NCBI GenBank assembly: GCA_949012915.1
Contig: CARLBU010000004.1
Location: 79,314-124,416, forward strand
Length of the DNA stretch: 45,103 nucleotides
Origin: an uncultured Lachnospiraceae bacterium
GTDB lineage: Bacteria; Bacillota; Clostridia; Lachnospirales; Lachnospiraceae
Reading direction: 5' to 3'
Shown: positions 13,123 through 20,656 of the stretch, one piece after another
Layout of the letters: each line of letters starts with the position of its first letter
Numbering within the stretch: position 1 is the stretch's first letter
Notes under the pieces: model-generated
Databases searched by the model: none
Told to the model about the DNA's origin: nothing
The model's input: the letters and a program-made list of their open reading frames with translations, nothing else
Program-made: the position numbers and the translations under genes

Positions 13123-13713
13123 TTAGAGTGTAATTTTTAAATACACTTCATCTCTTTCGTCTTGTTCAATACTTAAATATCGCTTGGTAATGCTGTAGGA
13201 GGAGTGATTGTAAAGATCCATTAAAAGGGCTGGAGGGGTTCCCTGTTTCCACGCATGATAACCGAATGTCTTCCTTAGAGAGTGGCAGCTGATATGTTGA
13301 TCCAGTCCAGATGCTTTGGCAGCAGTACAGATAATTCGGTAGGCTTGAGAACGACTGATTGGCTCATTCTTTCCTTTCTGACTTAAGAAGAGATACTGCT
13401 CTTTTTCATAGGGTTTTTCCTGGAAGGAATACGAGAGGTAGTTTTTTAGGGTGGTGCAGATAGAGCGGTTTAATGCAATCGTGCGGGATTTTCCAGTCTT
13501 TTGTTCTATTACTTCTAAATGTTTTTTCATGGTTTTAGTATGGTCATCATAGATATCGTTCCATTTTAATGTGAGAATATCGGAGATTCGCAGTGCTGTA
13601 TTTAGTCCCAATATAATCAGGGTATAGTTTCTTGGCTGAGGTTTTTGCAGCAAATAATAATTTTTAAATTGGTTCAGTGCATCTTTGCTTTTAATAGGCT
13701 GTGTTGTGCTCAT
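13123..13713 (-). CDS. Small tyrosine site-specific recombinase (catalytic domain only, FimB/FimE-sized)
   Basis: 196 aa with catalytic residues in order: R in ..LNTALRISD.., K in ..KTGKSR.., HxxR in ..HSLRKTFG.., H in ..LYNHSS.., and Y in ..ITKRYL... There is no N-terminal core-binding domain. Confidence 0.8.
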   Translation of the reverse strand: MSTTQPIKSKDALNQFKNYYLLQKPQPRNYTLIILGLNTALRISDILTLKWNDIYDDHTKTMKKHLEVIEQKTGKSRTIALNRSICTTLKNYLSYSFQEKPYEKEQYLFLSQKGKNEPISRSQAYRIICTAAKASGLDQHISCHSLRKTFGYHAWKQGTPPALLMDLYNHSSYSITKRYLSIEQDERDEVYLKITL

Positions 13714-13826: not shown

Positions 13827-14081
13827 ATGTTAAGACTGACTCTAAGTACAGAAGAATACCTGATGATAGGGGATAATATTAAGATTGCATTTTTAGGAGG
13901 CAGTAAAAGCCATCTTCGAATTCTGATTGATGCACCAAAGGAAGTCGGTGTAGTGAGAAGTAAAGTGATGGAACAGAACGTGCCGGAAGAAGAGAGGGGA
14001 TCTCTTCCTCAATATTATGCAGAACCGGAATTGGCAGAACGGTTTCGAAAAAAGAAATTTTCTTCGAAGGCAGGAAGCTAA
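13827..14081 (+). CDS. csrA: Carbon storage regulator CsrA
   Basis: The N-terminus MLRLTLSTEEYLMIGDNIKIAFLGG..LRILIDAPKEVGVVRSKV matches the CsrA fold consensus (MLVLTRK..IGDDI..GIDAPK). It is immediately upstream of flagellin. Confidence 0.85.
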   Translation: MLRLTLSTEEYLMIGDNIKIAFLGGSKSHLRILIDAPKEVGVVRSKVMEQNVPEEERGSLPQYYAEPELAERFRKKKFSSKAGS

Positions 14082-14345: not shown

Positions 14346-15929
14346 ATGGTAGTACAACACAATCTTACAGCAATGAATTCTAATCGTATGCTAGGTATCA
14401 CAACCAAGGCTCAGGCAAAATCCACAGAAAAATTATCATCTGGTTATAAGATCAATCGTGCAGCAGACGATGCAGCAGGTTTGGCAATTTCCGAAAAAAT
14501 GAGAAAGCAGATCCGAGGACTGACACAGGCTTCTTCTAATGCACAGGACGGAATCAGTGCCGTACAGACAGCAGAAGGTGCATTGACAGAAGTACAGGAT
14601 ATGCTTCAGAGAATGAATGAATTGGCAGTAAAGGCAGCAAATGGAACGAATTCTTCTTCTGATAGAGATGCGATTCAGGCTGAGATCGATCAGTTGGTAA
14701 CAGAAATCGATCGTGTATCGGAGACAACGAAGTTTAATGAAACTTATTTGTTAAAAGGGGATGTAAATGCTGCAAAAGACACAAATTTCCAATATAAAGA
14801 AGTAGATGTGATTAGCCAAGACCTTTACTATGTAGAAGATAATACCGTTAAGACTTTATCGAAAGGGACGTTGAAAACAGCAGTTGATTCAACAAAAGTA
14901 TATTATAGTGACAGTACAGGTGCAACCTATGGAGTAGCGATTGCATCTAGTGATTCTGGTAATTTCTTAAATAATTCGGAAGCAGTTTTCACGGATAGTA
15001 CAGGTAAGTATTTGAAGAAAGTGGGAGATGAATATTATCAAGTTGCTTCTGGGGAAGCATATGATTCAACAATAACTTATTATTCTTCTAGTGCTGGAAC
15101 AGGTGATATAAAGAGCCAAGCAGTTGCAATTGCTAGTAATACTATAACTGATACTGGTGCACATTATAAGCTGAAGACAGAAGTATATGATTCAGATGGA
15201 AATAGGAAAGAGATAGGGACAGATATTGGTGCGACTGCTGCAGATATATCGAAGTATTATTCTACGCTTGCTCCTGTAAAACTTGCTGTAGATTCTGTCG
15301 CTTATTCTGACTATACAAGTAAGGGCGTAGTTCAATTTATTGATAAGGATGGTAATGAGATTGCTGCGAATGGTTTAGATAAATATATTAACAACAACGG
15401 TAAGTTAGATCCTAATGCAGAACTGTATTTAAAGACAGGAGAGGGTGCAACTGACCGTCAGTTGGCAACACAGGCTGACGTGGATAGATTGTTAAGTTAT
15501 ACAGATAAATTTGATGTAGGTGCTTTAACTTTGAATCTTCATGTAGGTGCAGATGCTACAACCAATAATCAGATTTCTCTTGATATAAAGTCTATGAGTG
15601 CTAAGGCAATTGGTGTCACTGGTTTAAAGGTAAATGGAGAAGATGATACAAATGCATTAAATGCAATTGAAACAATTAAAGCGGCATTGAATAAGGTTTC
15701 TGATCAAAGAGCTGCCCTTGGTGCTGTTCAAAACCGTTTAGAGCATACAATTAATAACTTAGATAATGTAGTGGAGAATACGACAAGTGCTGAAAGTCAA
15801 ATTCGTGATACGGATATGGCTACTGAAATGGTAAGATATGCGAATAATAATATTTTGGCTCAAGCTGGTCAATCTATGTTAGCTCAAGCAAATCAGAGCA
15901 ATCAAGGAGTTCTTTCTCTTCTTGGTTAA
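14346..15929 (+). CDS. Flagellin
   Basis: A conserved N-terminal D0/D1 region (..[24 protein letters not shown]..) and C-terminal region (..[25 protein letters not shown]) flank a long variable central domain. Confidence 0.95.
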
Positions 15930-16038
15930 TAGTAATTGTTGTAAAAAACAGATTAGATTAAATGGTATGAATATCTATAGGCGGTGCGGTTTTTACACCG
16001 CCTATTGTTATTTATTCTTTATTTTGTAGGAGTATAGT

Positions 16039-17244
16039 ATGAAGCTATTTATTTATGATTGGAATTTTATTACAAAGTATGATTTGTATAGAGCAATGCA
16101 GAAACAGGGGATTGAATATGATTTATTTAATTCAAAGTCAAATCCTAGAGTAAATTCACAAAGTAAGCAGTTTCGGGAGGATTTGGAAAAAGCCTTAGAT
16201 AATAAAAAATATGATGCAATTTTTTCTATTAATTTTTTTTTGGAGTTGGCAGAGGCAGCACATGCAAGAAATATACTTTATATTTGTTGGACATATGATA
16301 GTCCAGCCTTAGGCATAGCAAATGAAACTCATTTTTTTGACACCAATCGTATTTTTTTATTTGATTCTTCGGAATATGAGGAATTTCAGGAACATGGAGT
16401 AAAAAATATTTTTTATTATTTACCTTTGGCAGCTGATGCTAGACGTTTAAGTCGAATGAAACCTACTCCCATGGGAAGGATGAAATATCATGCAGATATT
16501 TCTTTTGTTGGGCAGCTTTATCAATCAGATATGGATAAAATGTTTCCCCTATTTGATGAATATGGTGCAGGCTATATTGCAGCACTGATTAATATACAGT
16601 TAAATGTTTATGGTACGAATTTTATTCAAGAATTAATTAATGAAAATCTTATTAAACGTCTATGCAATCAAAAAGTAACAGAAGCTTTATTGAAAAATTT
16701 GAATCATAATTTTTTTCATGATGTAGAAGAAGTAAAAAGTTGGGGATTGATTGCTTTTCTTTTAAAGGCAGTAACCAATAAAGAGAGAATACTTTTACTT
16801 ACACTATTGGCAAAATATTATCATGTAAAGTTGTTTACCATAAATAGTCCGAAACTTCCAAATGTAAAGATATGTGAACCTGTAGATTATAGATATGATA
16901 TGCCGCTTGTATTTAAGTGTAGTAAAATAAATTTAAATATTACATTGCGAAATATTCGCCGGGGTATCCCTCAGCGAGTGATTGATATTATGGGCTGTCA
17001 TGCATTAGCAATGACAAATTATCAAGAAGATTTAAATGAATATTTTAAAGACGGATAAGATCTTTTGATATATAGTTCTATGGAAGAGGCATTAGATAAG
17101 TGCAAATATTATCTAAGTCATGAAAAGGAAGCAGAAAAAATTAGACAAAACGGTTATAAAATTGTCAAAGATAAGTTTAGTTATGAACATCAATTAAATC
17201 GAATATGGGAACTCTCAGGTTTGAAAAACAAGTTATCAAAATAA
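16039..17244 (+). pseudogene. CgeB-like glycosyltransferase (DUF3880 family) interrupted by an in-frame TAA at 17056-17058. The same frame continues to 17244 and encodes the conserved C-terminus.
   Basis: Before the stop the translation is ..NEYFKDG. After it, ..DLLIYSSMEEALDKCKYYLSHEKEAEKIRQNGYKIVKDKFSYEHQLNRI aligns with the paralog's FKRDETLVYFTNPAEF..YQKLIEGHTYWHRI. The TAA sits where a Glu (GAA) is expected. Confidence 0.6.
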
Positions 17245-17267
17245 AGACAGATAAGCGAGGAATTATT

Positions 17268-18422
17268 ATGAAGCTAACATATCTTATATGGGGCTATCCT
17301 TATGATAAAGCTATTCTAAAAGCATGGAAAGAGATGGGAATTTTGGTAAATACAATTCTGCTTTCACATGAATTGATACAGAATTGGGAAGAAAAAAAGG
17401 AAATACAACAGAAAGAAAAAGTGGAATCTCTTTTGCTTTCCTTGAAAGAGCAGATTCGAGCAGCAGCGGGTGATATGGTGTTTTCTGTTAATTTTTTATC
17501 GTTTATATCGGATTTTTGCCAAAGAGAAGCCATTCCTTATTGCAGTTGGATCTTACAGCTTCCTAATTTTGATTTATATACAGCTTCTGTGCGGAATGGA
17601 TATAATTATTTTTTTGTATGTGATAGTTATTTGGTAGAAAAACTATGGCAATTAGGAATTACAAATGCCTTTTTTCTGCCTGATGCTGTAGAAGTAGATA
17701 GTGTACGAGAAATTGTGCCTATGGAAAGAGAAGTATGTTTTCTTGCAAAATGCCCAGAGGATGTTTTAAATACAAAGGAAATGTCCATTTACAGTAAAGG
17801 CTATCTAGATGCTTTTATTCATGCACAAAGGGTATTATATGGGGCATATATTCTAGAAAATGGATTATTGCTTCGGGTACAACAGGAGTTTTTAAAGGGA
17901 AATATCCTTCCAGAGAATCTTCTTTTAGAAATGCAGAAACTTTTTGTGGCAGATCGATATTTTGCACCTGTATGTACTAGAATACAGCAGCAAATATTTT
18001 TACAAAATTTTGCTTCCATTATGACAATTTATTCTAACGGAGAGTTTCCAGATTGTAATTCTAAAAAAAAGGCTTTGGTGGAAGATGAAATAGCGAGGAA
18101 GAAAATTTATGCCGGAAAAGAATTTACTTTGGTATTAGCACCTCATACTTTACATAATGGTATTCCAAGGGATACGTTGGAAGTAATAGCAGCAGGAGGT
18201 TTTCCTATTGTTGGATTTCAGAGGGATTATGCTTATTTTTTTAAGAGAGATGAAACATTAGTATATTTTACAAATCCTGCAGAGTTTTCACGTGCGATTG
18301 TACGATATGGAAATCATATAGAAGAAAGAGAACGTGTAAAGGAGGCGGCATATCAGAAACTGATAGAGGGACATACTTATTGGCATCGAATTGCTGCAAT
18401 ATTAGAGGTATGGAAAAAGTAA
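17268..18422 (+). CDS. CgeB-like glycosyltransferase family protein (flagellin-modification locus)
   Basis: A 385-aa paralog of the upstream gene, starting at MKLTYLIWGY after the SD gcgaggaa. The conserved C-terminus is ..VYFTNPAEFSRAIVRYGNHIEERERVKEAAYQKLIEGHTYWHRI. Confidence 0.65.
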   Translation: MKLTYLIWGYPYDKAILKAWKEMGILVNTILLSHELIQNWEEKKEIQQKEKVESLLLSLKEQIRAAAGDMVFSVNFLSFISDFCQREAIPYCSWILQLPNFDLYTASVRNGYNYFFVCDSYLVEKLWQLGITNAFFLPDAVEVDSVREIVPMEREVCFLAKCPEDVLNTKEMSIYSKGYLDAFIHAQRVLYGAYILENGLLLRVQQEFLKGNILPENLLLEMQKLFVADRYFAPVCTRIQQQIFLQNFASIMTIYSNGEFPDCNSKKKALVEDEIARKKIYAGKEFTLVLAPHTLHNGIPRDTLEVIAAGGFPIVGFQRDYAYFFKRDETLVYFTNPAEFSRAIVRYGNHIEERERVKEAAYQKLIEGHTYWHRIAAILEVWKK

Positions 18423-18445
18423 TAGGAAAAGTAAAGGAGAAAAAG

Positions 18446-20620
18446 ATGAATATTTATGTTTGTTCCCCGCCAAGAGTTACTACCGGGGGGGTAGAACTGC
18501 TTCAACAGCTTGTTTTTGAACTGAATAAACAGCATTTTGGAATAGCAAAATTATTGTATATAGATAATACTCCTGAAATGGGGCATCCCGTTCCAGAACA
18601 ATATGAAAAATATAAAAATCCTTTTTTGGTAAATACTTATAATGAAAAGGATGCTATTATTGTTTTGCCGGAAGTGATGGCTGTTATGGCAGAAACTCAA
18701 TTTAGAAGATGTTCTGTTATTATATGGTGGGAAAGTGTAGACAATTATTTTTTAGCAAATCCTGTTGAAAAATGGTATAGCTTTAAAAAAAATAAATCAA
18801 TATTGCATATGACACAATCCATGTATGCAAAAGATTTTTTAAAAAAAGCAGGCGTTTCTGAAGAACAGATTTTTGAGGTATCCGATTATTTGGGAGAAGA
18901 TTTTTTTACAGAAGAAGTATTGTTGGATTCTTCGAAACGTAAGTTAAATGTTCTTTATAATCCGAAAAAAGGTCTTGATTTTACAAATAAATTGATAGCA
19001 TTTTCGCCAAATCTGCATTGGATTCCAATTGCCCAAATGTCACCAGATGAGGTTTCCCATCTTATGCTGGAAAGTCGGGTATATATTGATTTTGGAAATC
19101 ATCCGGGCAAAGATCGGATGCCAAGGGAAGCAGCAATCAGCGGTTGCTGCATTGTAACAGGCAGGAATGGAAGTGCAGATTACTATGAAGATATTCCGAT
19201 TATGGATCAATATAAGTTTAAACGTACAATAGCAGATGTACCAGCAATTTGTTCCTGTATAGAACAGTTAGTAAATGAATATGATACCTATATTTCAGAT
19301 TTTGAATATTATCGTTCTTTTATTCGGGCAGAGAAATCAAAATTTGAAAAAGCAGTAAGCGATTTACTTTCTATTTTATTAGAACATAATCCATTTAGAA
19401 ATTCAGAAGAAATAAATGTCATACAAAAATTGGAAGATAGGATTCAGATTGCAGTATATGGAACAGAAAATTATAGTATAACGGCGAAAAATTTAATTGA
19501 AAATTTATATAATATGTATCTTCAGGATTTAGATCCCAATAATTATAAATTTGAAGTTACACATTTTGTTGTAGAAAAACCTTTTGTATCGATGCAAAAA
19601 GGAGTACCAGTTATAGAGTTAAAAAAGTTTGTCACTCTATATAAGGAACAAAAAGTAGCAGCAATCGTAATTCCAACTGCTGCTTATATAGGACAATCCT
19701 TTTTAATTACCGATTTGATTCAGGCAGGGGTGGATATTAATGATATCTACTGTATAGGAAGAAATTTATTAAAACAAAATCAATATGCTAAAGAAGAATT
19801 ATCACATTTACTGGTACCTTATTTAGATTGTCCCTATTTACCTTATCTGGAATATCATGTTGTAGATCATTGTAACTTAAATTGTAAAGCATGTGAGCAT
19901 TATGCTCCATTAGTAGAAAAAAAGAAAATTACCAATTATGAACAGTTTAAGAAAGATTTCTTTCAGTTAAAATCATTTATCAAAGATATTGGAATAATCA
20001 GAATTATGGGCGGGGAACCTTTATTAAATAAAGAATTAAAAAAATTTCTTCTTTTAACAAAAGAAGTTTATCCAGATTCTAAAATAGCCGTTGTAACCAA
20101 TGCTCTTTTATTAAAGCAAATGGAAGATGAACTATTTTATTTGATGAAGATAGTAAACGGTTATTTTTCTATTTCTTGGTATCCACCAATGAAGGATAAA
20201 ATAGAAGAAATCAAAGAATTTTTAAATAAAAAGGGGGTATCTTATTGGGTTTCGCCTTTAATGGAAAATTTTACAATGAAGCAGAATGTTTCGGGAGATA
20301 ATGATAAAACAGAACAATTTTTCCGATGCCTACAGGCTCACTATCATAATTTATATGAGGGAAAAATAGCGGCGTGCTTTCTGCCGTTTGTAACCCCTTA
20401 TTTTAATCAAACCTTTCAAAAAGCAATTCCATGTGACGGTGCGGTTGATTTATATCAGCCGAATCTGACACTCTGTCAGATAAAACAAGCCTTACTAACT
20501 CCAATGAACCGCTGCAGATATTGTTCACCGCCTGTTTCTGTTGCCTGGCAGCAAGCCAATCCAAACTTTCCGAAACTAGAGGACTGGATTATAGAGAGAA
20601 AAGCAGAGTATTCCAAATAA
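18446..20620 (+). CDS. Multidomain enzyme: N-terminal GT-B-like glycosyltransferase region, a Rossmann-like middle region, and a C-terminal radical SAM domain
   Basis: Starts MNIYVCSPP after the SD aaaggag. The GT-like motif is ..SRVYIDFGNHPGKDRMPREAAISGCCIVTG... The radical SAM CxxxCxxC motif is DHCNLNCKACEH, followed by ..IMGGEPLLN.. and a Cys-rich C-terminus. Confidence 0.65.
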   Translation: MNIYVCSPPRVTTGGVELLQQLVFELNKQHFGIAKLLYIDNTPEMGHPVPEQYEKYKNPFLVNTYNEKDAIIVLPEVMAVMAETQFRRCSVIIWWESVDNYFLANPVEKWYSFKKNKSILHMTQSMYAKDFLKKAGVSEEQIFEVSDYLGEDFFTEEVLLDSSKRKLNVLYNPKKGLDFTNKLIAFSPNLHWIPIAQMSPDEVSHLMLESRVYIDFGNHPGKDRMPREAAISGCCIVTGRNGSADYYEDIPIMDQYKFKRTIADVPAICSCIEQLVNEYDTYISDFEYYRSFIRAEKSKFEKAVSDLLSILLEHNPFRNSEEINVIQKLEDRIQIAVYGTENYSITAKNLIENLYNMYLQDLDPNNYKFEVTHFVVEKPFVSMQKGVPVIELKKFVTLYKEQKVAAIVIPTAAYIGQSFLITDLIQAGVDINDIYCIGRNLLKQNQYAKEELSHLLVPYLDCPYLPYLEYHVVDHCNLNCKACEHYAPLVEKKKITNYEQFKKDFFQLKSFIKDIGIIRIMGGEPLLNKELKKFLLLTKEVYPDSKIAVVTNALLLKQMEDELFYLMKIVNGYFSISWYPPMKDKIEEIKEFLNKKGVSYWVSPLMENFTMKQNVSGDNDKTEQFFRCLQAHYHNLYEGKIAACFLPFVTPYFNQTFQKAIPCDGAVDLYQPNLTLCQIKQALLTPMNRCRYCSPPVSVAWQQANPNFPKLEDWIIERKAEYSK

Positions 20621-20627
20621 AAAAATT

Positions 20628-20656
20628 GACAAAGCCTTTTTCCTATGTTATACTTT
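20628..20656 (+). promoter_or_regulatory. Sigma-A-type promoter TTGACA-17-TATACT upstream of rpsO
   Basis: Consensus hexamers and spacer, ~95 nt upstream of the rpsO start. Confidence 0.5.

What the first reader, a model, noticed from the sequence alone, without database searches (positions are those of the whole stretch)
18446..20620. Three-part enzyme in the flagellin-modification cluster: GT-B-like domain, Rossmann-like middle domain and radical SAM domain in one 724-aa polypeptide
It lies directly after flagellin and two CgeB-like glycosyltransferases.

- The N-terminal ~330 aa look like a GT-B glycosyltransferase (..SRVYIDFGNHPGKDRMPREAAISGCCIVTG..).
- The last ~280 aa carry a canonical radical SAM CxxxCxxC motif (CNLNCKAC) plus ..IMGGEPLLN.. 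and several further Cys that could hold an auxiliary cluster.

I am not aware that a glycosyltransferase fused to radical SAM chemistry is a described architecture. In a flagellin glycosylation island it points to a sugar that is modified (C-methylation, epimerisation or dehydration) and transferred by one protein.
Basis: partly seen in the sequence, partly recalled or inferred. Interest (0 to 1): 0.6.

Follow-up and report, generated by a model that had tools for sequence, protein, structure and literature searches.

The report
Glycosyltransferase fused to radical-SAM sugar enzyme
The last gene of a small flagellin-glycosylation island in a gut or rumen Lachnospiraceae bacterium encodes one 724-residue protein joining a sugar-transferring enzyme to a radical enzyme whose only close structural relative oxidises a sugar alcohol in spectinomycin biosynthesis; this joined design appears undescribed, is rare in databases, and suggests flagellin sugars are attached and radically re-tailored by one protein.

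Summary
ORF 18446-20620 is real (724 aa, good Shine-Dalgarno). It recurs on dozens of independent contigs, and all parts are under purifying selection.

This radical SAM family sits next to CgeB-like glycosyltransferases in 35 of 47 loci. It has fused independently to three different glycosyltransferase families.

Most likely the protein transfers a sugar onto the flagellin glycan and epimerises or oxidises a sugar carbinol. C-methylation is unlikely.

The three-part fusion is rare: one 50%-identity cluster among 1.84 billion representatives. It is also unstable, with deletions, an in-frame stop and poly-G frameshift alleles.

The window's allele has Tyr where the family has a near-invariant Cys. 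That Cys aligns with the residue I recall toggling epimerase versus dehydrogenase activity in HygY and SpeY. All function is inferred.

The parts
13827..14081 (+). csrA, the first gene of the conserved csrA-fliC-GT-GT-fusion module
   Evidence: NCBIfam CsrA E 4.7e-10, below the curated cutoff. Pfam CsrA is on record for the syntenic genes in L001 and L002.
14346..15929 (+). Flagellin (527 aa), the presumed glycosylation target
   Evidence: Pfam Flagellin_N 4.7e-43 and Flagellin_C 7.2e-27.
16039..17259 (+). First CgeB-like glycosyltransferase (DUF3880 + Glyco_trans_1_2). In this window it is cut short by an in-frame TAA at 17056-17058.
   Evidence: Pfam. tblastn of the 409-aa L002 orthologue aligns residues 1-406 in one frame across the stop, and L002 has Lys at that codon.
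17205..18422 (+). Second CgeB-like glycosyltransferase, ending 23 nt before the fusion gene
   Evidence: Pfam Glyco_trans_1_2 2.8e-12 and DUF3880 3.7e-08.
18435..18439 (+). Shine-Dalgarno AGGAG for the fusion gene
   Evidence: Sequence read directly.
18446..20620 (+). The whole fusion gene, 724 codons plus stop
   Evidence: Identical or near-identical proteins occur on dozens of contigs, for example MCX4268050.1.
18446..19387 (+). GT-B (GT4-like) glycosyltransferase domain, aa 1-314. Family signatures: GG14-15, WWxSVDN 94-100, NPKKG 172-176, YxDFGNHPGKDRxPREAAxxGC 213-234.
19439..19771 (+). Rossmann-like domain (about aa 332-442), the native N-terminal domain of the stand-alone radical SAM family
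19823..20305 (+). Radical SAM core (about aa 460-620) with CxxxCxxC at aa 476-483 (nt 19871-19894) and GGEP at aa 522-525
   Evidence: Pfam PF04055. C476, C480 and C483 are invariant in the family.
20228..20237 (+). A5G5 homopolymer run inside the radical SAM core. The orthologous A6G7 run in the P0002 cluster exists as G6, G7 and G8 alleles.
20306..20593 (+). Twitch (abbreviated SPASM) domain, aa 621-716. It has four invariant Cys (628, 644, 690, 693) and the C-x10-G-x4-C hairpin motif.
20342..20344 (+). Codon 633, Tyr in this window. The family has Cys here in 145 of 154 members, and the position aligns with SpeY Ser183.
20626..20654 (+). Near-consensus sigma-70 promoter (TTGACA-17-TATACT with an extended TG) for rpsO. 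It marks the fusion gene as the last gene of the island.
   Evidence: This is a consensus match only.

Best explanation
The protein is a bifunctional tailoring enzyme of the flagellin O-glycan.

- **GT-B domain (fold shown; activity inferred):** the N-terminal GT4-like domain takes a sugar from a nucleotide sugar and adds it to flagellin or to its growing glycan, alongside the two CgeB-like glycosyltransferases encoded just upstream.
- **Radical SAM unit (fold and motifs shown; chemistry inferred by analogy with SpeY, HygY and BtrN):** this is a Rossmann-like domain plus a twitch radical SAM. It would reductively cleave SAM at the CxxxCxxC [4Fe-4S] cluster. The 5'-deoxyadenosyl radical would abstract the hydrogen from a secondary carbinol carbon of a glycosidically bound sugar.
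- **Two possible outcomes (inferred):** the substrate radical is either quenched from the opposite face by an active-site Cys, giving an epimer as in HygY, or oxidised through the auxiliary [4Fe-4S] cluster to a keto-sugar as in SpeY and BtrN.
- **This allele (inferred):** most family members keep the candidate hydrogen-donor Cys and are predicted epimerases. The allele in this window has Tyr633 instead. That predicts a keto-sugar (dehydrogenase) outcome or an impaired enzyme.

Fusing the two activities would couple attachment of a common sugar to its in-situ conversion into an unusual one. This would explain why the island has no nucleotide-sugar biosynthesis genes.
For: **GT-B domain**
- Donor-site-type residues are invariant: K175 in NPKKG and E228 in PREA. 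E228 aligns to the second Glu of the EX7E motif of 8xsg.

**Radical SAM unit**
- Pfam passes its threshold.
- Four invariant auxiliary Cys are present.

**Coupling to glycosyl transfer**
- The stand-alone family lies within 10 kb of a CgeB-like GT in 35 of 47 loci, usually under 150 bp away, and within 10 kb of flagellin in 21 of 47 (examples).
- The same family is independently fused to GT2 (P0272, on 4 contigs) and to a classical GT4 (P0406).
- In L019 an N-domain-family gene overlaps the end of the radical SAM gene.

**Module conservation**
- fliC-GT-GT-fusion is conserved while the flanks differ.
- All domains are under purifying selection, dN/dS 0.09-0.38.

**Switch residue**
- Family Cys633 falls in the column of SpeY Ser183. 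More distant SpeY relatives carry Cys there.
- The title of Besandre et al. 2021, seen, states that one Cys mutation turns the epimerase HygY into a dehydrogenase.
Against: - No activity, substrate or glycan is known for any member of either family.
- The GT-B domain hits no Pfam or NCBIfam glycosyltransferase model. It has Pro where the first Glu of EX7E would be.
- Identity to SpeY is only about 20%, so substrate and regiochemistry cannot be transferred.
- Eleven of 47 family loci have neither flagellin nor a CgeB-like GT nearby. These are mainly Selenomonadaceae, for example between divIVA and ylmH in S. ruminantium.
- The radical SAM part is dispensable in close relatives: deleted in P0004 and P0005, interrupted by a stop in L094, and frameshifted in some P0002-cluster alleles.
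- This window's island carries both C633Y and a nonsense codon in the first GT, so the system may be partly inactive here.
- The link between Ser183 and the epimerase/dehydrogenase switch rests on my recollection of Zhang et al., JACS 2022, which I could not retrieve.
Confidence: 0.5

Rival explanations
1. Same two activities, opposite order. The Rossmann-like domain binds a nucleotide sugar, the radical SAM unit epimerises or oxidises it while still nucleotide-bound, and the product is handed to the fused GT-B as its donor (substrate channelling).
For: The middle domain resembles small Rossmann-like domains of nucleotide-sugar enzymes, namely 3nkl (UDP-D-quinovosamine 4-dehydrogenase fragment) and the PglB acetyltransferase N-domain. 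Fusion of a donor-making enzyme to the transferase that uses it is a common logic. Some stand-alone members sit beside nucleotide-sugar genes: UDP-galactopyranose mutase in L008 and IspD/ADH in L005.
Confidence: 0.15
2. The radical SAM unit modifies the flagellin polypeptide (for example residue epimerisation, a thioether, or Ser/Cys oxidation as in anSME and RiPP maturases). The GT-B domain acts separately.
Confidence: 0.1
3. In this lineage only the GT-B (+ Rossmann-like) part matters. The radical SAM part is a decaying passenger, and the window's allele is already non-functional.
For: Loss of the radical SAM core twice (P0004 nested inside the fused clade, and P0005), an in-frame TAG in L094, G6 and G8 frameshift alleles, and replacement of the near-invariant Cys633 by Tyr or Arg. 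There is also a nonsense codon in the neighbouring GT of this window.
Against: dN/dS of the core and twitch regions is as low as or lower than that of the GT-B domain (0.09-0.28). All cluster ligands and the GGEP motif are intact in the window. In L094, L096 and L097 the downstream frame is otherwise intact, which fits recent or reversible switching better than long decay.
Confidence: 0.15
4. The module glycosylates something other than flagellin (cell-wall polysaccharide, S-layer or spore surface), and the flagellin adjacency is incidental.
For: CgeB and YkvP are spore-surface proteins in Bacillus (family name only). Some family loci are glycan clusters without flagellin within 10 kb: L005 with LicD, IspD and ADH, and L098. 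Flagellin is seen in only 21 of 47 loci.
Against: The order fliC-GT-GT-fusion is kept in five diverged lineages with different flanks. Stand-alone members sit inside full flagellar filament clusters, fliW-csrA-flaG-fliD-fliS-flagellin. My flagellin HMM was built from Lachnospiraceae sequences and may undercount.
Confidence: 0.08

Closest known systems
SpeY, twitch radical SAM dehydrogenase of spectinomycin biosynthesis (PDB 7wzv, 7wzx, 7x0b)
   Different: Only 20-21% identity. SpeY is a 302-aa single-unit actinomycete antibiotic enzyme with no Rossmann-like N-domain and no GT. It has Ser183 where this family has Cys and the window has Tyr. The loop is three residues longer in SpeY.
HygY, twitch radical SAM epimerase of hygromycin B biosynthesis (related: NeoN)
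   Same: The predicted chemistry for most of the family is radical epimerisation of a sugar carbinol with a Cys hydrogen donor. The paper title states that a single Cys mutation converts HygY to a dehydrogenase. The family's fifth Cys aligns with that switch position as mapped through SpeY Ser183.
   Different: The HygY sequence and structure were not available here, so the comparison is indirect. The context differs: an aminoglycoside pathway against a flagellin glycan island.
BtrN, 2-deoxy-scyllo-inosamine dehydrogenase (PDB 4m7s, 4m7t)
   Different: Much weaker match than SpeY, with no accessory domains.
GT4-type GT-B glycosyltransferases, closest the Actinobacillus minor NM305 glucosyltransferase (PDB 8xsh, 8xsg)
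   Different: 18% identity. No hit to the Pfam GT4 models. The first EX7E Glu is replaced within the family-specific HPGKDR motif. The family occurs alone (~310-345 aa), with a ~100-130-aa tail, or fused to GT2, DUF4422, Glyco_tranf_2_5, Glyco_trans_1_2, TPR or HAD modules.
Phase-variable flagellin-glycosylation genes of Campylobacter (poly-G contingency loci)
   Same: A G-tract inside a flagellin-island tailoring gene exists as G6, G7 and G8 alleles, with the downstream frame otherwise intact. Uncharacterised MoaA/NifB/PqqE/SkfB-type radical SAM genes with poly-G tracts are listed in Campylobacter phasomes.
   Different: Within-population switching is not shown here, and homopolymer sequencing error is not excluded. 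The window's own tract is only A5G5.
Class B (cobalamin-dependent) radical SAM C-methyltransferases such as GenK, Fom3 and TsrM
   Same: A Rossmann-like domain sits N-terminal to a radical SAM core.

Membership tests
GT-B fold glycosyltransferase (GT4-like) | Two Rossmann-like beta/alpha/beta domains with a C-terminal helix crossing back | tested here: met
GT-B fold glycosyltransferase (GT4-like) | Donor-binding signature (EX7E, plus Lys/Arg for the diphosphate) | tested here: inconclusive
   E228 and K175 are invariant. E228 aligns to the second Glu of 8xsg. The first Glu position is Pro220 within the invariant HPGKDR motif.
GT-B fold glycosyltransferase (GT4-like) | Match to curated GT4 sequence models (PF00534, PF13692, PF13439 and similar) | tested here: not met
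   No Pfam or NCBIfam hit for aa 1-460 even at E <= 1. The sequence profile against PDB gives only E 0.26 to 8xsg.
GT-B fold glycosyltransferase (GT4-like) | Glycosyl transfer from a nucleotide sugar | not testable with these tools
   Needs an enzyme assay.
Radical SAM superfamily | CxxxCxxC cluster motif, GGE SAM-binding motif, and PF04055 above the gathering score | tested here: met
   C476, C480, C483 and G522-G523-E524 are invariant. PF04055 scores 35.7 bits against a cutoff of 29.5.
Twitch radical SAM sugar dehydrogenase/epimerase (SpeY, HygY, BtrN type) | Abbreviated SPASM (twitch) domain with Cys ligands for one auxiliary [4Fe-4S] cluster | tested here: met
   C628-x10-G-x4-C644 ... C690-x2-C693. 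C644, C690 and C693 are Cys in every aligned member and C628 in all but one. Cluster occupancy itself is not testable here.
Twitch radical SAM sugar dehydrogenase/epimerase (SpeY, HygY, BtrN type) | Overall structural similarity to characterised members | tested here: met
Twitch radical SAM sugar dehydrogenase/epimerase (SpeY, HygY, BtrN type) | Residue opposite SAM C5' that decides the outcome (Cys gives epimerase; Ser or none gives dehydrogenase) | tested here: inconclusive
   The column of SpeY Ser183 holds Cys in 145 of 154 family members, Tyr in the window and Arg in most of the P0002 cluster. The functional meaning rests on recalled literature and on a sequence alignment containing a 3-residue indel.
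Twitch radical SAM sugar dehydrogenase/epimerase (SpeY, HygY, BtrN type) | H-atom abstraction from a sugar carbinol carbon | not testable with these tools
   Needs anaerobic enzymology with labelled substrates.
NCBIfam N_Twi_rSAM (NF033640) and MoaA, viperin, BlsE equivalogs | Score above the curated cutoff | tested here: not met
   39.3 against 170 bits for NF033640, 43.6 against 284 for MoaA, and all others far below their cutoffs.
Cobalamin-dependent (class B) radical SAM methyltransferase | N-terminal cobalamin-binding domain (PF02310) | tested here: not met
   No Pfam hit in nine middle-domain sequences at E <= 10. Weak fold scores to TsrM and Mmp10.
Flagellin glycosylation island | Glycosyltransferase genes co-located and co-oriented with a flagellin gene, conserved across relatives | tested here: met
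   The window and L001, L002-4, L010, L093. Stand-alone family members lie in filament clusters L011-L013.
Flagellin glycosylation island | Flagellin actually carries a glycan that depends on these genes | not testable with these tools
   Needs glycoproteomics.

The most novel reading that the evidence does not exclude
Gut and rumen Lachnospiraceae and Selenomonadaceae have a previously unrecognised family of twitch radical SAM enzymes that re-tailor sugars already attached to flagellin, by radical epimerisation or oxidation. In this lineage the enzyme is welded to the glycosyltransferase that places the sugar. The outcome is switched between epimer, keto-sugar and off by natural alleles: Cys/Tyr/Arg at the hydrogen-donor position, G6/G7/G8 frameshifts, and stop or deletion at the domain boundary. 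This would give a hypervariable flagellin glycan without any dedicated nucleotide-sugar pathway.
Probability: 0.25. Interest if true: 0.8.

Novelty: new variant of a known kind. Interest (0 to 1): 0.6.

Why it matters
Radical SAM sugar epimerases and dehydrogenases are so far known from aminoglycoside antibiotic pathways. I am not aware of one characterised in a protein-glycosylation system.

A family of several hundred sequence clusters is tied to glycosyltransferases and flagellin genes in abundant gut and rumen Firmicutes. It has been fused three separate times to glycosyltransferases. This would extend that chemistry to post-transfer tailoring of protein-linked glycans.

It would also explain how flagellin islands without nucleotide-sugar genes could still make unusual sugars.

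Lachnospiraceae flagellins are major immune antigens of the gut microbiota. Switchable glycan chemistry on them would therefore be relevant to host recognition.

The natural Cys/Tyr/Arg alleles provide a ready-made test of the epimerase-dehydrogenase switch proposed for HygY and SpeY.

Tried and rejected
- **Frameshift or assembly artefact joining two genes:** rejected. The reading frame is conserved in independent assemblies and under purifying selection.
- **C-methyltransferase (class B) reading of the Rossmann-like + rSAM arrangement:** rejected. No cobalamin-domain signal was found.
- **Dehydratase (DesII, AprD4), decarboxylase (BlsE) or sulfur-swap (AbmM) types:** much weaker structural matches than SpeY.
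- **Sequence-only identification of the N-domain:** failed. Pfam, NCBIfam and the PDB profile gave at best E 0.26. Only structure prediction resolved it.
- **Literature searches:** searches for 7WZV, SpeY and flagellin + radical SAM found nothing useful. The HygY and SpeY papers are not held, so their details are cited from memory and from a title in a reference list.
- **Close fused relatives in GTDB species representatives:** none found. The best hit was 47% identical and all were unfused.
- **Tails of ordinary N-domain proteins as homologues of the middle domain:** only weak support (hhalign probability 76% over 54 columns).
Full report
**1. The observation**

The ORF at 18446-20620 (+) is real. 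It has 724 codons from an ATG preceded by AGGAG at 18435-18439.

The surrounding gene order is as follows:
- a 196-aa integrase fragment on the minus strand
- csrA
- flagellin
- two DUF3880/Glyco_trans_1_2 (CgeB-like) glycosyltransferases
- this gene
- rpsO, pnp and an Rnf operon

A near-consensus sigma-70 promoter for rpsO begins 6 nt after the stop, so the gene closes the island. The three glycosylation genes have 30-33% G+C against 37-42% in the flanks.

**2. The fusion is genuine**

The same reading frame occurs at 99%, 77% and 68% identity (P0001, P0002, P0003). These come from independent ENA, NCBI and Logan assemblies with the same upstream genes. The exact 724-aa protein is MCX4268050.1, named 'radical SAM protein [Lachnospiraceae bacterium]', and its cluster members are seen on dozens of contigs.

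Nei-Gojobori dN/dS against three diverged fused genes is 0.17-0.23 for the GT-B part, 0.20-0.38 for the middle domain, 0.09-0.18 for the radical SAM core and 0.09-0.28 for the C-terminal domain. A frameshift or chimeric-assembly origin is excluded.

**3. N-terminal part**

No Pfam or NCBIfam model matches aa 1-460. More than 100 database proteins share only aa 1-310. In them the domain stands alone, carries a 100-130-aa tail, or is fused to GT2, Glyco_tranf_2_5, DUF4422, Glyco_trans_1_2, TPR, HAD or methyltransferase modules.

Invariant residues sit in GT4-like positions: GG14-15, K175 in NPKKG, and E228 in DFGNHPGKDRxPREA. E228 aligns with the second Glu of EX7E in 8xsg, while the first Glu position is Pro.

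So this is a GT-B fold of a divergent GT4-like family without a model. The fold is shown; the activity is inferred.

**4. C-terminal 400 residues are one unit**

A search with aa 318-724 finds at least 300 clusters of stand-alone ~380-aa proteins covering 94% of it, from Lachnospiraceae and Selenomonadaceae. The 'middle' domain is therefore the native N-terminal domain of this radical SAM family.

The model has pLDDT 93.9 and pTM 0.91. It shows a beta-alpha Rossmann-like domain (about aa 332-442), a radical SAM partial barrel and a C-terminal hairpin/helix domain.

For the Rossmann-like domain:
- Homoserine dehydrogenase, Gfo/Idh/MocA, Rex and the PglB N-domain follow.
- It has no Pfam match and no glycine-rich dinucleotide loop.

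For the radical SAM unit:
- PF04055 is passed.
- C476, C480, C483 and GGEP are invariant.
- C644, C690 and C693 are Cys in every aligned family member and C628 in all but one, in a C-x10-G-x4-C ... CxxC pattern typical of a twitch domain.

**5. Closest known enzyme**

SpeY, which the PDB titles 'a Twitch Radical SAM Dehydrogenase', is the top hit by three methods:

| Method | SpeY | Runner-up |
|---|---|---|
| Sequence profile against PDB | E 5.4e-13 | MoaA, E 3.8e-09 |
| Single sequence against PDB | E 3.1e-7 | no other hit |
| Foldseek | E 4e-15, TM 0.73 | BtrN, E 1.4e-5 |

From my own knowledge, SpeY oxidises the C2' alcohol of tetrahydrospectinomycin. BtrN oxidises 2-deoxy-scyllo-inosamine. 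The SpeY homologue HygY epimerises a sugar carbon in hygromycin B. These are all sugar or cyclitol carbinol chemistry.

**6. Functional coupling to glycosyl transfer**

I scanned one genome per species with the family profile and obtained 79 loci, none fused and the best only 47% identical. Fifty-eight carry a full-length family member, and 47 of those have at least 10 kb of total flank. Counts within 10 kb of the radical SAM gene were:

| Feature | Loci (of 47) |
|---|---|
| CgeB-like GT (mostly within 150 bp) | 35 |
| Flagellin gene | 21 |
| Separate N-domain-family gene | 3 |
| None of these (mostly Selenomonadaceae) | 11 |

- In L019 the separate N-domain gene overlaps the radical SAM gene's end.
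- Among the loci with none, the S. ruminantium gene lies between divIVA and ylmH.
- Examples L011-L013 place the gene directly after a flagellin gene, inside a fliW-csrA-flaG-fliD-fliS filament cluster full of glycosyltransferases.

An exhaustive HMMER pass over 1.84 billion 50%-identity representatives found only one representative covering aa 1-724. It also found two further, independent fusions of the same radical SAM family:
- P0272: rSAM followed by a GT2 domain, seen on four contigs in a GT-rich island.
- P0406: rSAM followed by a classical GT4.

Three fusions to three unrelated glycosyltransferase families are strong Rosetta-stone evidence that the radical SAM enzyme works with glycosyl transfer.

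**7. Instability of the fusion**

- **P0006:** keeps only the first half of the GT-B domain, plus the rSAM unit.
- **P0004, P0005 and P0007:** these 452-454-aa proteins keep the GT-B and the Rossmann-like domain and all end within about six aligned residues of one another, at query residues 461-464.
- **Secondary loss:** P0004 is nested inside the fused clade (72% identical to the query, against 65% for the fused P0003), so its truncation is secondary. Its gene and that of P0005 are followed by unrelated genes.
- **In-frame stop:** in L094 (P0007) the boundary is a single in-frame TAG. The radical SAM frame continues intact after it and is 63% identical to the query.
- **Frameshift alleles:** within the P0002 cluster an A6G7 run inside the core exists as G7 (726 aa), G8 (621 aa) and G6 (607 aa). 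The downstream frame is otherwise intact. This is either phase variation or homopolymer error. The window has A5G5 at 20228-20237.

Why three lineages end at the same boundary is unexplained. Selection for a stable GT-B + Rossmann protein, or recombination, are possibilities.

**8. A candidate outcome switch**

The family has a fifth Cys at query position 633, present in 145 of 154 members. Native 302-aa SpeY/SpcY homologues have C24xxxCxxC, C175, Ser183 immediately before HTVYDG, and C194. More distant SpeY relatives have Cys in that column. MAFFT places the family's Cys633 there too.

I recall from Zhang et al. (JACS 2022) that Ser183 faces the substrate carbon and that S183C turns SpeY into an epimerase. 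The mirror result for HygY is stated in a paper title I could see. I could not retrieve either paper.

If the mapping holds, most of the family are epimerases. The position is polymorphic within species:
- Cys or Tyr in the query's 90% cluster. The window has Tyr, at codon 20342-20344.
- Arg with a rewritten loop, or Cys, in the P0002 cluster.

The window's allele is thus predicted to give a keto-sugar or to be impaired. The alignment crosses a 3-residue indel, so I rate the mapping at about 65%.

**9. State of the island in this window**

The first CgeB-like GT has an in-frame TAA at 17056-17058 where the orthologue has Lys. Homology continues in frame to about 17259. Together with C633Y, this suggests the glycan made by this strain differs from that of its relatives, or that the system is partly off.

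**10. Verdict**

The architecture is confirmed, and I found no description of it in the searchable literature. The best-supported mechanism is a glycosyltransferase coupled to a SpeY/HygY-type radical sugar epimerase or dehydrogenase acting on the flagellin glycan, at confidence about 0.5.

It is a new variant of known kinds (a GT4-like GT-B and a twitch radical SAM sugar enzyme) in a new biological setting. Every functional step beyond fold and motifs is inferred.

Noticed in passing
L002 9774-9800, L096 3274-3300, L097 2014-2040; window 20228-20237: A homopolymer run inside the radical SAM core is A6G7 in full-length alleles, G8 in a 621-aa allele and G6 in a 607-aa allele. The downstream twitch-domain frame is intact in each. 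The window has A5G5 in frame. This is possible phase variation of the radical SAM activity, or homopolymer sequencing error.
   Followed up: partly
window 20342-20344 (codon 633): Tyr stands in place of a Cys conserved in 145 of 154 family members. The site is polymorphic (Cys or Tyr) within the query's own 90%-identity cluster, and Arg or Cys in the sister cluster. It aligns with SpeY Ser183.
   Followed up: partly
window 17056-17058 (within 16039-17259): The first CgeB-like glycosyltransferase carries an in-frame TAA where the L002 orthologue has Lys, and the rest of the gene continues in frame. In L003 the same gene is also split (228 + 158 aa). The annotated start of the second GT (17205) probably lies too far upstream, since orthologues are 386 aa.
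   Followed up: partly
L094 3916-3918; ends of P0004, P0005 and P0007: Three diverged relatives end within about six aligned residues of one another, at the boundary between the Rossmann-like domain and the radical SAM core. In L094 this is a single in-frame TAG followed by an intact, well-conserved radical SAM frame whose first possible start would lack the first cluster Cys. Why the same boundary recurs is unexplained.
   Followed up: partly
window 18446-20617 against L002 8001-10178: Synonymous divergence is mosaic. dS is about 0.8 in the GT-B and radical SAM core segments but about 0.2 in the Rossmann-like and twitch segments. This suggests recombination between alleles within the gene.
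   Followed up: no
L098 2635-4791, L099 2564-4720 (P0272); P0406: There are independent fusions of the same radical SAM family to a GT2 domain (718 aa, on four contigs, in a GT-D/methyltransferase/GT2 island) and to a classical GT4 domain pair.
   Followed up: partly
L072 9995-11155 (Selenomonas ruminantium HD4) and other Selenomonadaceae loci: Stand-alone family members here are not near flagellin or CgeB-like genes. In S. ruminantium the gene lies between divIVA and ylmH. In L019 an N-domain-family GT-B gene overlaps the radical SAM gene's 3' end, giving a split arrangement in the reverse order to the fusion.
   Followed up: partly
window 13123-13713 (-) and 16000-20600: A 196-aa phage-integrase catalytic-domain fragment sits just upstream of csrA-fliC and is also present in L002. 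The GT-GT-fusion segment has 30-33% G+C against 37-42% in the flanks. Both are consistent with a mobile or exchangeable glycosylation island.
   Followed up: no
C-terminal tails of ordinary N-domain family proteins (e.g. P0021, P0026): The 100-130-aa tails after the GT-B domain in many family members show weak profile-profile similarity (hhalign probability 76%, 54 columns) to the second half of the Rossmann-like domain of the radical SAM family. This hints at a shared accessory domain.
   Followed up: partly
window 20626-20654: A near-consensus extended -10 sigma-70 promoter (TTGACA-17-TATACT, 11 of 12 matches) lies immediately after the fusion gene's stop, presumably for rpsO-pnp.
   Followed up: no
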